Virus record (IMG/VR): IMGVR_UViG_3300045988_004821
Strand: one strand, 5' to 3'
Source of the DNA: a virus
Taxonomy: Duplodnaviria > Heunggongvirae > Uroviricota > Caudoviricetes
DNA: 64,000 bases
Numbering within the stretch: position 1 is the first letter of the stretch; the number at the start of each line of letters is the position of its first letter. Below the pieces are notes generated by a model that had not been told where the DNA came from, did not search any database, and was given only the letters and a program-made list of their open reading frames with translations. Position numbers and translations under genes: made by a program. Of the stretch, positions 22,381 to 24,187 are shown piece after piece.

Positions 22381-22740
22381 TTACTGCCATCCTTCCATAC
22401 CTTACCTTACCACACCTAACCATACCTAACCAAACTACACCATACAATACCTTATTAAAAGACCCTCTTAAAGACCTTTTAAAAAGGTAAGTCTCATTTT
22501 AATGTAGCTGAGACTAACTACCCATACCTCACCCTACCAGACCCTACCAGACCAGACCTTACCCTACCAGACCCTACCGAACATCACTTAAAAACCCTCT
22601 TAGAAGACTCTTAAGTGATGTAATCGAATTTTAATGTAGCTCCGATTAACTACCCATACCTCACCTCACCCAACCATACCATGCCTTGCCAGACCGCACC
22701 TTACCTCATTAAAAGACCCTCTTAAAAGACCTTTTAAAAA
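22381..22740. repeat. structured non-coding repeat region A (CA-rich tracts, iterons, two covarying hairpin families)
   Basis: H1 hairpins about 22455-22482, 22582-22620, 22709-22737; H2 hairpins about 22490-22515, 22621-22648; no ORF. Confidence 0.6.
22521..22580. repeat. iteron-like direct repeats (ACCCTACCAG x4)
   Basis: 10-bp units at about 22531, 22541, 22561, 22571 with ACCAGACCTT between. Confidence 0.6.
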
Positions 22741-22758
22741 GGAGCCTCCGAAGAGGCT
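22736..22758 (-). terminator. rho-independent terminator after gene 22770-23210
   Basis: On - strand AGCCTC-UUCG-GAGGCT followed by TTTTT. Confidence 0.55.
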
Positions 22759-22769
22759 ACCTAGTCAAC

Positions 22770-23210
22770 TTAGAAAGGTTTTCTACGTTGCTTGTTAATG
22801 TTAGCTTTCATAGCAGCTAAATGGTTTTGCTGTTCAATCAGTCGTGAACGTTCTTGATGACTAAGCGCCATAGTGTTCACATTCTCAATTGCTTGAGTGG
22901 CTTGCTTTAAAGCTCGACCAATCTTACCAGACATTTTGCGTTTTGCAATAGTTGCTTGATGCTTAGGTTCAACCACACGATAACCAACACCCATTGAAGC
23001 AACCAGATAAATCTTCTCTTCTTTAAGAAGCTTTTCAATAAACTTCTCAAGTCGGTTTAGACGTGTAAGTGCATAAGCCTTCATTTCATCTTCGTACTTA
23101 ACAATGTCACCTTGATAAGTTGGCTTCACAATACCTAAGAAGGTGTCCATCTCGGAATGTGATACAGTGTCGCCGTAACTAAACTTTGCTGCTAATGCTT
23201 TTGTATTCAT
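22770..23210 (-). CDS. hypothetical protein (repeat-flanked module, gene 2)
   Basis: 146-aa ORF; followed on - strand by UUCG-loop terminator. Confidence 0.4.
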   Translation of the reverse strand: MNTKALAAKFSYGDTVSHSEMDTFLGIVKPTYQGDIVKYEDEMKAYALTRLNRLEKFIEKLLKEEKIYLVASMGVGYRVVEPKHQATIAKRKMSGKIGRALKQATQAIENVNTMALSHQERSRLIEQQNHLAAMKANINKQRRKPF

Positions 23211-23212
23211 AA

Positions 23213-23815
23213 TTAAACGTTACCTTCTGAAATAACTTCTACAGAAAAACGACCAAAGCGTGGACGCCAATCACCTACACCACAAAGGTTACCAGCATTT
23301 TCCAGAACCATCAGAAGTTCCTCTTTGGTGATTTGCTCTTCATCAAACATCAAACCAAACTCTACAGACCAGTCACGGAAGATTGGACGGTAGCTCATAA
23401 CTCGTGCTGTACCAATCTTAACAGACTTAGCATAGATAAAGTCTGGATTCTTAGCAAGTTCTTGTGGGTTTGCTGGACAGTTCTTGATAGTCATTGGGAA
23501 GACTACATCTGTCAGCATAATGGCTCGGTCAATTACCTTACCAAGTTTGTTGAGTTTTGCACCAGACTTGATACAAGCCTCAATCATCTCACCGTTCATA
23601 ACAAAACCAAGTTGCTCATCGTAGTAACAAGAAGTTACCAGTTGGCTTTCTGCTAAGAGCGCATAGTCTTCGTCAGTCTTTTTACGTTTACTGGACAGAG
23701 ACTTGTGATATTTTGTCAGAGGGTTTAATGGGTCTGACAACGTATCGTTATGGCTCAAGAAAGGACGAGTACCAGTGATTTTGATATTTAGCAGTTTCAT
23801 AGCATTTAGCTCCAC
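23213..23815 (-). CDS. hypothetical protein (repeat-flanked module, gene 1)
   Basis: 200-aa ORF; structured repeat regions on both sides of the two-gene module. Confidence 0.4.
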
Positions 23816-23841
23816 ACTTTAGTTGATTGTTAAATTGTTTG

Positions 23842-24187
23842 TAAAGAACCCTCAACAGAAGACTCTTTAGAAACTTGGTAGATTTTTAACGTGGCTACTA
23901 CCATCCACCCATACCATGCCACACCACACCGGACCTTACCTAACCCGACCTTACCATACCTGACCTAACCCTACCATACCTTATTAAAAGACCCTGTTTA
24001 AAGACCTTTTAAAAAGGTAAGTCTCATTTTTATGTAGCTGAGACTAACTACCCACACCAAACCATAGCATACATCGCATTACCGGACAGAACCATACTTT
24101 ACCAAACATCACTTAAAAACCCTCTTAGAAGACTCTTAAGTGATGCTGGTGAGTACCCGTTGGTTTATGCTGCTCAGTATACTCACC
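23842..24187. repeat. structured non-coding repeat region B (paralogous to region A)
   Basis: H1 hairpins about 23842-23869, 23984-24012, 24107-24145; H2 about 24020-24045; extra hairpin GGTGAGTA...TACTCACC 24148-24187. Confidence 0.6.

What the first reader, a model, noticed from the sequence alone, without database searches (positions are those of the whole stretch)
22381..24187. Two paralogous non-coding regions with covarying hairpin families flanking a two-gene module
Regions 22381-22740 and 23842-24187 contain no ORFs but are highly organised. H1 hairpins share a loop core ACCCTC-N-AAGAC yet use three different stems (TTAAAAG/CTTTTAA three times, CATCACTTAA/TTAAGTGATG twice, TAAAGA/TCTTTA once). 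H2 hairpins share the loop TTTT(A/T)ATGTAGC with two different stems (AGTCTCA/TGAGACT twice, TAATCG/CGATTA once). Stems change by compensatory substitution while loops stay constant, which is the signature of selection on secondary structure. The elements sit in the same order and orientation on both sides of the unknown genes 22770-23210 and 23213-23815. They could be structured RNAs, binding sites for a phage protein, or recombination substrates that make the two-gene module exchangeable.
Basis: seen in the sequence. Interest (0 to 1): 0.8.

Follow-up and report, generated by a model that had tools for sequence, protein, structure and literature searches.

The report
VIPR guide-RNA arrays in a phage

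Summary
On the coding (minus) strand each unit carries 10-14 in-phase pentamers GGYNN, found nowhere else in the 64 kb. The flanked 195-aa gene is 191/195 identical to the solved SUSP1 Vipr protein (PDB 36pp). The 146-aa gene is 145/146 identical to SUSP1 vap1. Two 2026 preprints describe this system: VIPR, in which Vipr coats each GGY and the NN dinucleotides read double-stranded DNA while skipping every third base.

The window holds five vrRNA genes, two upstream and three downstream of vipr-vap. H1 is a 17-20 bp hairpin of the sense RNA. Its supposed loop is paired through G·U wobbles. H1 sits at every junction between guides or between a guide and an mRNA, and never after the last guide.

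I decoded the guides with the 1-nt-skip rule. Three of five hit E. coli satellite islands at 82-91%, and one more hits partially. Verdict: an ordinary member of a known, very recent system. The only loose end is the inter-guide hairpin, which I read as a maturation or boundary signal.

The parts
24176..24203 (-). Sigma-70-type promoter TTGACA-16-TATACT at the head of the upstream array and the vipr-vap operon
   Evidence: 11 of 12 matches. The same sequence is present in SUSP1, EC6 and BPS17L1. Activity was not tested.
24148..24187 (-). Leader hairpin GGTGAGTA...TACTCACC overlapping the -10 element; role unknown
   Evidence: Conserved in SUSP1 and in relatives that lack VIPR.
24106..24146 (-). 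H1b inter-guide hairpin, 19 bp in the sense RNA
   Evidence: -19.6 kcal/mol, z -6.5.
24018..24103 (-). vrRNA gene U1: 10 pentamers (only 5 keep GGY) at 24054-24103, then the GGGTA unit and a type A tail (hairpin plus pseudoknot) at 24018-24053
   Evidence: Target match of 18/20 inside a satellite CDS, with the skipped base on the wobble position.
23977..24019 (-). H1a inter-guide hairpin
   Evidence: -14.4 kcal/mol, z -4.3.
23875..23980 (-). vrRNA gene U2: 14 intact GGYNN pentamers at 23911-23980 and a type C tail at 23875-23910. It occupies the position of SUSP1 vrRNA1, just upstream of vipr.
   Evidence: Only a partial target: 10 consecutive perfect units in a satellite baseplate gene.
23842..23869 (-). 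H1c hairpin between the U2 tail and the vipr ribosome-binding site
   Evidence: Follows the type C tail in 20 of 21 loci.
23213..23800 (-). vipr gene (195 aa, ATG at 23800 preceded by GGAG): a minimal RAMP protein that coats the GGY repeats
   Evidence: PDB 36pp_D 'SUSP1 Vipr protein', E = 6e-128, 191/195 identical. Contact residues H17, E71, M72, R138, C173, D177, W178 and R179 are all present.
22770..23210 (-). vap1 accessory gene (146 aa)
   Evidence: 145/146 identical to the SUSP1 gene next to vipr (ALH47068.1). At least 98% identical in 118 phage records. The preprint calls type II vap a predicted DNA-binding protein that enhances protection.
22743..22758 (-). GC-rich UUCG hairpin followed by a U-run directly after the vap stop codon: a terminator-like or mRNA 3'-end structure
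   Evidence: Conserved in all 21 loci.
22704..22742 (-). H1a hairpin at the head of the downstream array
22620..22705 (-). vrRNA gene D1: 10 intact pentamers at 22656-22705 and a type B tail at 22620-22655
   Evidence: Target match of 18/20 in a satellite intergenic region upstream of the gene hit by U1.
22581..22621 (-). H1b inter-guide hairpin
   Evidence: -19.2 kcal/mol, z -6.0, against -10.3 for the plus strand.
22488..22578 (-). vrRNA gene D2: 11 intact pentamers at 22524-22578 and a type A tail at 22488-22523
   Evidence: No target found.
22448..22489 (-). H1a inter-guide hairpin
   Evidence: -14.6 kcal/mol, z -3.6.
22361..22451 (-). vrRNA gene D3: 11 pentamers (9 keep GGY) at 22397-22451 and a type D tail at 22361-22396. 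It is the last unit and no H1 follows it.
   Evidence: Target match of 20/22 lying 30-62 nt upstream of the first gene of a satellite operon.

Best explanation
The region 22361-24203 (minus strand) is a type II, SUSP1-clade VIPR (Viral Interference Programmable Repeat) locus.

Layout: a promoter, two vrRNA genes, vipr, vap1, then three more vrRNA genes.

Each vrRNA is about 85-105 nt.

Mechanism established for SUSP1 in the two preprints: one Vipr protomer binds each pentamer and sequesters GGY. The filament presents the NN dinucleotides, which pair with double-stranded DNA while skipping every third base. Binding silences transcription.

Targets: in this phage the guides are aimed at ~11 kb satellite islands in E. 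coli chromosomes that carry copies of the phage's tape-measure and baseplate genes.

My own inference: the H1 hairpins are 17-20 bp double-stranded segments of the precursor RNA at every junction between a guide and its neighbour. They serve as maturation sites (most likely host RNase III) and/or as boundaries that stop Vipr filaments spreading between guides.
For: Shown here:
- Vipr identity to the solved SUSP1 protein is 191/195, with all named RNA-contact residues present.
- vap1 is 145/146 identical to the SUSP1 gene.
- The locus is syntenic with SUSP1, down to promoter, H1 and tail types.
- The in-phase GGYNN tracts are unique to these regions.
- NN is hypervariable while GGY is kept: 68 distinct guides in 21 loci, mostly 10-15 units.
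- The tail hairpin plus pseudoknot covaries.
- The same-strand tracts also accompany Vipr homologues of only 37-40% identity.
- The 1-nt-skip rule is reproduced independently. Against three satellites, 40 of 68 guides reach 80% or more with skip 1, against 2, 2 and 3 with skip 0, 2 and 3. Only 2 of 68 do so in an equal length of flanking control DNA.
- Window guides: U1 18/20, D1 18/20, D3 20/22. No self-target reaches 80%.
- One satellite carries the protein accessions cited in the preprint.

Taken from the papers (10.64898/2026.04.26.720920 and 10.64898/2026.04.26.720927): sRNA-seq of four ~100 nt vrRNAs in SUSP1, co-purification with Vipr, the skip rule in vitro and in vivo, cryo-EM filaments, and the 3' pseudoknot.

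For H1:
- The sense-strand fold is more stable than the antisense fold in 70 of 71 cases, mean -14.6 against -8.8 kcal/mol.
- G·U pairs are conserved in 27-32 of 32 sequences.
- H1 is present after tail types A, B and C in 70 of 72 cases and after the terminal type D in 0 of 21.
- H1 is absent from a satellite's stand-alone vrRNA, which has its own promoter and terminator.
Against: - There are no expression or binding data for this particular phage. Transcription, maturation and RNP formation are inferred from SUSP1.
- U1 keeps GGY in only 5 of 10 units and D3 in 9 of 11. The preprint reports that perturbing GGY abolishes silencing, so U1 may be weak or dead.
- D2 has no detectable target. U2 has only a partial one, 21/28, with mismatches at the units next to the pseudoknot and the skipped base on codon position 1 rather than the wobble position.
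- A terminator-like hairpin lies between vap1 and the downstream array.
- The H1 role is untested. H1 covariation rests largely on three paralogue classes. The preprints' figures were not available to me, so H1 may be drawn there.
Confidence: 0.93

Rival explanations
1. The paralogous regions are primarily recombination cassettes, comparable to the promoter-early stem-loops (PeSLs) of T4-type phages. Their job would be to let the two-gene module be gained, lost or swapped.
For: The two arrays are direct repeats flanking the module. The accessory gene vap1 is found in only 118 of about 260 related phage records. Relatives without vipr-vap (EC6, BPS17L1) keep promoter, leader hairpin, H1b, one tract and tail D. 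That is exactly what one crossover between the arrays would leave.
Against: The content of the repeats is explained in detail by guide function: conserved GGY, hypervariable NN, and satellite targets. Only one sigma-70-like promoter heads the upstream array, and the H1 elements contain no acceptable -10 element. The same GGYNN tracts accompany distant Vipr genes in other arrangements. Recombination is therefore a by-product of tandem guides, as it is in CRISPR arrays.
Confidence: 0.05
2. The GGY tracts and hairpins are cis-acting leader elements through which Vipr (or Vap1) controls its own translation, in the way TRAP binds 11 spaced triplets in the trp leader. They would not be trans-acting guides.
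For: U2 and H1c lie directly upstream of the vipr ribosome-binding site on the same transcript. In distant loci each tract ends in GGTTTTTT followed by a Shine-Dalgarno sequence and ATG. Vipr binds GGY repeats.
Against: Three guides lie downstream of the operon, beyond a terminator-like hairpin. The NN positions are hypervariable and match satellite DNA only under the 1-nt-skip rule. In SUSP1 the RNAs accumulate as separate ~100 nt species and redirect silencing when reprogrammed. Autoregulation could still exist as an extra layer.
Confidence: 0.04
3. The regions are a DNA-level feature of replication: iterons, primase sites, or G-rich R-loop or G-quadruplex tracts forming an origin next to the ligase and nucleotide-metabolism genes.
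For: The locus sits within DNA-metabolism genes. The tracts show strong local G/C strand asymmetry, and (GGNNN)n could in principle form two-tier quadruplexes.
Against: GC skew in the window simply follows gene orientation, with no switch at the locus. The third position is constrained to a pyrimidine and the G·U-dependent hairpins are strand-specific, which points to RNA. About half of the relatives lack the module and are viable phages. The VIPR explanation accounts for every element.
Confidence: 0.01

Closest known systems
SUSP1 type II VIPR system (Vipr, vap1, vrRNA1-4; bioRxiv 10.64898/2026.04.26.720920 and 10.64898/2026.04.26.720927; PDB 36pp)
   Same: Near-identical Vipr (191/195) and Vap1 (145/146). 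Same promoter, leader hairpin, H1 hairpins, tail types and gene order. Same GGY/NN repeat design, same 3' pseudoknot and same satellite targets.
   Different: The window has five vrRNA units (2 upstream, 3 downstream) against SUSP1's four (1 + 3). The NN guide sequences differ. The host phage is a Felixounavirus-like genome, closest to Escherichia phage ZX4221, rather than Suspvirus SUSP1. H1 is not mentioned in the text of either preprint.
CRISPR arrays and class 1 Cas7 (RAMP) filaments
   Same: Tandem units give small guide RNAs with a variable part capped by a conserved structured part. A RAMP protein polymerises along the guide. The system is directed against competing mobile elements.
   Different: There is no repeat-spacer alternation, no cas1/cas2 or other cas genes, and no PAM. 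The guide information is non-contiguous (2 of every 5 nt) and reads DNA with a 1-nt skip. The locus is phage-encoded and silences rather than cuts.
Hammerhead-ribozyme-interspersed and staggered vrRNA arrays of other VIPR types
   Same: An element between adjacent guides that would free the individual vrRNAs.
   Different: Here the inter-guide element is a plain 17-20 bp A/U- and G·U-rich hairpin with no ribozyme core. Rfam finds no family in the window. Cleavage would therefore need a protein nuclease.
RNase III processing sites (phage T7 early mRNA; tracrRNA:pre-crRNA duplexes)
   Same: About two turns of double-stranded RNA placed exactly between functional RNAs in a polycistronic precursor. 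This rests on established knowledge of RNase III substrates.
   Different: No cleavage data exist. H1 has a conserved apical sequence, which RNase III does not require, so another reader (Vipr, Vap1) is possible.
T4-type PeSL mobile regulatory cassettes
   Same: Repeated intergenic stem-loop elements flanking accessory genes that vary in presence among relatives.
   Different: PeSLs pair an early promoter with a terminator stem-loop and carry no guide-like repeats. Here only one promoter-like site heads the array.
TRAP-binding leader RNA (11 spaced GAG/UAG triplets)
   Same: About 11 conserved triplets separated by 2 variable nucleotides, each bound by one subunit of a protein oligomer.
   Different: Vipr forms an open helical filament rather than a closed ring. 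The variable nucleotides carry the information, and the RNA acts in trans on DNA.

Membership tests
VIPR system, type II, SUSP1 clade | A Vipr protein: a minimal RAMP of ~20 kDa with RRM core, G-loop and thumb | tested here: met
   195 aa. phmmer against PDB finds 36pp_D 'SUSP1 Vipr protein', E = 6e-128, 191/195 identical over the full length. The fold itself was not re-predicted; it is inferred from this identity.
VIPR system, type II, SUSP1 clade | Residues that read G1, G2 and Y3 of each repeat (H17, D177, R138, W178, E71, M72, R179, C173) | tested here: met
   All eight are present at the same positions. The residue list comes from the structure preprint.
VIPR system, type II, SUSP1 clade | A vap accessory gene next to vipr, forming a two-gene locus | tested here: met
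   The 146-aa ORF lies 3 nt downstream of vipr and is 145/146 identical to the SUSP1 neighbour ALH47068.1. Its predicted DNA-binding fold was not tested. Pfam gives no significant hit.
VIPR system, type II, SUSP1 clade | vrRNAs with 9-16 YNNGG (GGY/NN) tandem repeats, GGY conserved and NN hypervariable, in the intergenic regions flanking vipr | tested here: met
   Five tracts of 10-14 in-phase units on the coding strand, unique in the 64 kb. There are 68 distinct guides among 91 units in 21 loci. U1 and D3 are partly degenerate, which the preprint says is frequent.
VIPR system, type II, SUSP1 clade | An invariable ~40 nt 3' tail with conserved structure including a pseudoknot | tested here: met
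   Four tail types (A-D) fit one hairpin-plus-pseudoknot model. 93.7% of cells are paired, 9 of 11 pairs change on both sides, and slid controls give 27-37%.
VIPR system, type II, SUSP1 clade | Targets obey the 1-nt-skip rule, and SUSP1-clade guides converge on an E. coli satellite phage | tested here: met
   Guides reaching 80% or more at skip 0/1/2/3: 2/40/2/3 of 68 in the satellites, against 1/2/1/3 in control DNA. Window guides U1, D1 and D3 score 82-91%. Satellite L029 carries WP_096972663.1 and WP_096972664.1, as cited in the preprint. D2 has no target and U2 only a partial one.
VIPR system, type II, SUSP1 clade | No self-targeting by the locus's own guides | tested here: met
   The best skip-1 match of the five guides anywhere in the 64 kb window is 0.68-0.75. 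The rest of the genome was not available.
VIPR system, type II, SUSP1 clade | vrRNAs expressed as ~100 nt species that co-purify with Vipr and silence transcription | not testable with these tools
   Shown for SUSP1 only. Inferred here from near-identity of the locus.
CRISPR-Cas | A repeat-spacer array plus cas genes (cas1/cas2 adaptation module, multi-subunit or single effector) | tested here: not met
   The units are pentamer tracts plus tail plus H1, not alternating repeats and spacers. Only vipr and vap lie in the locus.
T4-type PeSL recombination cassettes | Each cassette pairs an early sigma-70 promoter with a stem-loop terminator | tested here: not met
   There is one promoter-like site at the head of the upstream array and one terminator-like site after vap. 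None lies within H1 or H2 units.
Any curated RNA family (Rfam 15), including hammerhead ribozymes | A covariance-model match at the gathering score | tested here: not met
   No match in the whole window on either strand. No tRNA or tmRNA.

The most novel reading that the evidence does not exclude
The H1 hairpins are a dedicated, so far undescribed biogenesis or insulation element of type II VIPR arrays. They would be about two turns of G·U-rich double-stranded RNA with a conserved apex at every guide/guide and guide/mRNA junction. They would direct cleavage (host RNase III, or Vipr/Vap1) and delimit Vipr filament growth. In addition, recombination between the two arrays would repeatedly remove vipr-vap and leave 'orphan' guides that can use a co-infecting relative's Vipr, as the satellites' solo vrRNAs appear to do.
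Probability: 0.4. Interest if true: 0.4.

Novelty: already known. Interest (0 to 1): 0.25.

Why it matters
VIPR is a newly reported way of recognising DNA with RNA. It is proposed as an ancestor of CRISPR effectors and as a very small programmable silencing tool. This window adds nothing categorical, because its proteins are 98-99% identical to the characterised SUSP1 system.

Three things are still useful:
1. It independently reproduces the 1-nt-skip targeting rule and the satellite targets from raw sequence.
2. It gives five more natural guides, with predicted sites in promoter-proximal regions and a coding region of the satellite.
3. It points to two aspects that the text of the preprints does not treat: how guides are separated from one another and from the vipr mRNA (the H1 hairpins), and how the module is lost, leaving orphan guides in about half of the related phages.

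For the scan itself, it shows that a tool-less reader can flag a true RNA-guide locus from its hairpins alone while missing its defining 5-nt periodicity.

Tried and rejected
- Rfam at gathering score and tRNA/tmRNA scans of the whole window found nothing.
- GC skew as an origin signal: the skew only follows gene orientation.
- Pfam and PHROGs for both flanked genes gave only families of unknown function. The answer came from the PDB sequence search.
- Before that search I considered a TRAP-like ring-binding leader, Rho rut sites on the antisense RNA, Shine-Dalgarno-like standby sites, G-quadruplex or R-loop origins, T7-type primase sites and PeSL cassettes. All are superseded.
- Sigma-70 promoters inside H1: the candidate -10 hexamers (TTTAAT, TAATAA, TTTAAG) lack the essential A at position 2 or T at position 6 and do not pass the scan.
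- BLAST of the left array against 5,426 E. coli genomes found no match, so satellites could not be found through vrRNA tails. They were found through the baseplate gene instead.
- Exact gapped-pattern scans of IMG/VR for the U2 and D2 targets found 0 hits with 20-22 fixed bases. With 16 fixed bases there were 9 and 19 hits, and their extensions match no better than chance.
- Five further satellites gave D3 20/22, only a partial U2 site, and nothing for D2.
- Adding the terminal GG(G/A)NN unit to the guides does not extend any target match.
- BLASTP between Vap1 and the second gene of a distant VIPR locus gave 22% identity, E = 3.3, so homology is not shown.
- Searches for Felixounavirus transcriptome or small-RNA papers found nothing relevant.
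- No supplementary data files of the preprint are held.
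Full report
**The observation.** Genes in this part of the window run on the minus strand. Regions 22381-22740 and 23842-24187 contain no ORF of 40 aa or more. They are paralogous: a ~94-100 nt unit recurs five and four times at a spacing of ~130 nt. The H1 core and H2 loop motifs, at 0-1 mismatch, occur only in these two regions of the 64 kb.

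Read on the minus strand, each unit contains 10-14 pentamers GGYNN in strict 5-nt phase. A scan for in-phase GGT in 55-nt windows reaches 11 at five places, all inside the two regions. It never exceeds 4 elsewhere on either strand.

**What it is.**
- The window is a Felixounavirus-like phage; the best match is Escherichia phage ZX4221 at 95.9%.
- Loci encoding relatives of the flanked 195-aa protein all carry same-strand GGYNN tracts. This includes six metagenomic loci at only 37-40% identity, where GGC- or GGT-type tracts sit before, between and after the two genes.
- Pfam and PHROGs were uninformative.
- A sequence search of the PDB hit 36pp_D, 'SUSP1 Vipr protein', at E = 6e-128 with 191/195 identities.
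- That led to two 2026 bioRxiv preprints. They describe VIPR loci as vipr (a minimal RAMP), a vap accessory gene, and ~100 nt vrRNAs.
- Each vrRNA has 9-16 YNNGG repeats followed by an invariable 3' tail, with a pseudoknot in the SUSP1 clade.
- One Vipr protomer binds each repeat and sequesters GGY. The NN dinucleotides pair with double-stranded DNA while skipping every third base. Binding silences transcription.
- SUSP1-clade guides mostly target a satellite phage in E. coli genomes.

**Membership tests.**
- I fetched SUSP1 itself (L065). Its vipr and vap1 are 191/195 and 145/146 identical to the window's two genes. Its locus has the same promoter, leader hairpin, H1 elements and tail types. 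It has one vrRNA upstream and three downstream, as the preprint states.
- All eight Vipr residues reported to read G1, G2 and Y3 are conserved.
- Across 21 close loci I extracted 91 units with 68 distinct guides, mostly 10-15 units long.
- The tails fall into four types that fit one model, a 5-7 bp hairpin plus a 4 bp pseudoknot between the terminal GG(G/A)NNG and the hairpin loop. 93.7% of cells are paired against 27-37% for slid partners. 9 of 11 pairs change on both sides, and the pseudoknot helix is 98.9% paired.
The window has five of them, not three.

**Targets.**
- The window's gene next to the tape measure (8739-9536) matches a chromosomal 'phage baseplate protein' gene at ~91-93% in 474 of 5,426 complete E. 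coli genomes.
- These lie in ~11 kb islands with serine recombinases. One island carries the very protein accessions cited in the preprint for the targeted satellite.
- I scanned three islands with all 68 guides. 40 reach 80% or more NN match under the 1-nt-skip rule, against 2, 2 and 3 under skips of 0, 2 and 3. In an equal length of flanking E. coli and prophage DNA the counts are 1, 2, 1 and 3.
- U1 matches 18/20 inside a satellite CDS, with the skipped base on the wobble position.
- D1 matches 18/20 in the intergenic region upstream of that same gene.
- D3 matches 20/22 at 30-62 nt upstream of the first gene of a satellite operon.
- For U1, D1 and D3 (the latter at 18/22), the matches in the first three islands exceed or equal the best of 200 dinucleotide-order shuffles.
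- U2 has only 21/28, but with ten consecutive perfect units. These lie in the divergent C-terminal part of the satellite baseplate gene, where the phage's own copy differs.
- D2 has no target.
- No guide matches the window itself at 80% or more.

**H1.**
In the minus-strand RNA the ACCCTC/AAGAC segments pair through G·U wobbles, extending H1 to 17-20 bp. H1b folds at -19.2 kcal/mol (z -6.0), against -10.3 for the complement.
- Across 71 H1 copies the sense fold is the more stable in 70, with means of -14.6 against -8.8 kcal/mol.
- In 32 distinct sequences the three G·U pairs are kept in 27-32. 96.7% of cells pair, against 46-66% for slid controls. Six pairs show compensatory changes. These changes largely separate three paralogue classes, so independent events are few.
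- Position is informative. Tail A is followed by H1a in 33 of 34 cases, tail B by H1b in 17 of 17, and tail C (just before vipr) by H1c in 20 of 21. The terminal tail D is followed by nothing in 21 of 21.
- An H1 also heads each array, after the promoter/leader and after the vap terminator-like hairpin.
- A satellite's own solo vrRNA has its own TTGACG-17-TATAAT promoter and an intrinsic terminator, and no H1.
- Mature SUSP1 vrRNAs are ~100 nt, which is repeats plus tail, so H1 is removed.
- The words biogenesis, precursor (in that sense) and maturation do not occur in either preprint. Other VIPR types are said to use hammerhead ribozymes or staggered processing between guides.
- My inference is that H1 is the separator of type II arrays. 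It is most likely an RNase III-type double-stranded substrate, A/U- and G·U-rich and about two helical turns. It may also act as a boundary to Vipr polymerisation. The conserved apex hints at a sequence-specific reader. This step is inferred, not shown.

**Presence and absence.**
- The accessory gene vap1 is found in 118 phage records, at 98-100% identity in those listed. About 260 records match the neighbourhood, and many span ~1.8 kb less.
- Two such phages, EC6 and BPS17L1, keep the promoter, leader hairpin, H1b, one partly degenerate tract and tail D. That is the first and last elements of the two arrays fused, without vipr-vap.
- This fits deletion by recombination between the arrays.

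**Shown and inferred.**
- Shown here: the anatomy, the homology, structure conservation, the targeting rule and the targets.
- Taken from the preprints for SUSP1: expression, RNP formation, DNA binding and silencing.
- Inferred: that the same holds for this phage, that the promoter at 24203-24176 drives the upstream array and operon, that the downstream array is reached by read-through or processing past the hairpin at 22758-22743, and the role of H1.

**Rivals.** I considered recombination cassettes, a cis-acting autoregulatory leader and a replication origin. Each is outweighed by the guide explanation. The first two may be secondary truths.

**Verdict.** This is a real feature, correctly flagged but mis-centred. 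It is a near-identical member of the SUSP1-clade type II VIPR system published in 2026, so it is already known. Residual interest lies in the undescribed inter-guide hairpin and the orphan-guide deletion derivatives.

Noticed in passing
window 22316-22362: A perfect 13-nt inverted repeat AAATAAGCTATAA / TTATAGCTTATTT brackets the -35 TTGACA of the promoter-like site for gene 21887-22270. It looks like an operator. An HTH regulator gene lies nearby at 21381-21710.
   Followed up: no
window 8739-9536; L027 5990-17400, L028, L029, L060-L064: The phage gene next to the tape measure is 91-93% nt identical over nt 22-579 to a chromosomal gene in 474 of 5,426 complete E. coli genomes. These genes sit in ~11 kb satellite islands with their own tape measure, an HNH endonuclease and serine recombinases. 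The islands are inserted at yciI/tonB, in a DUF72 gene between yecN and yecD, or at ymdF/wrbA. The 3' third of the gene is divergent.
   Followed up: partly
L029 3953-4002 (minus strand) and flanks: One satellite carries a solo vrRNA: 10 GGYNN units and a type C-like tail with compensatory stem changes. It has its own sigma-70 promoter and intrinsic terminator but no vipr gene, so it would need the helper phage's Vipr. The preprint mentions such satellite-encoded vrRNAs.
   Followed up: partly
L030 1150-1470 (phage EC6) and L031 1150-1470 (phage BPS17L1): Relatives without vipr-vap retain one 'orphan' unit: promoter, leader hairpin, H1b, 9-10 partly degenerate pentamers and tail D. Whether it is a relic or is used with a co-infecting phage's Vipr is unknown.
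   Followed up: partly
L021-L026 (IMG/VR contigs; Vipr 37-40% identical): Distant VIPR loci place GGC- or GGT-type pentamer tracts upstream of vipr, between vipr and a ~148-aa second gene, and downstream. Each tract ends in GGTTTTTT followed by a Shine-Dalgarno sequence and ATG. The second gene shows only 22% identity to Vap1 (E = 3.3).
   Followed up: partly
window 22770-23800 compared with phage records: Vipr and Vap1 are 98-100% identical at the protein level across more than 100 phages whose surrounding DNA differs by 5-10%. The NN positions of the adjacent guides are hypervariable (68 distinct guides in 21 loci).
   Followed up: partly
window 24054-24103 (U1) and 22397-22451 (D3): Guides with degenerate GGY (NGT, TGC or GCT in place of GGY in up to half the units) still match satellite DNA at 82-91% under the skip rule. 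It is unclear whether such guides are loaded by Vipr.
   Followed up: no
window 24200-24388: A 62-aa basic, Cys-containing ORF (phrog_5428, unknown function) lies between the DNA ligase gene and the VIPR promoter. It is present in only some relatives, and many alignments break at this point.
   Followed up: no
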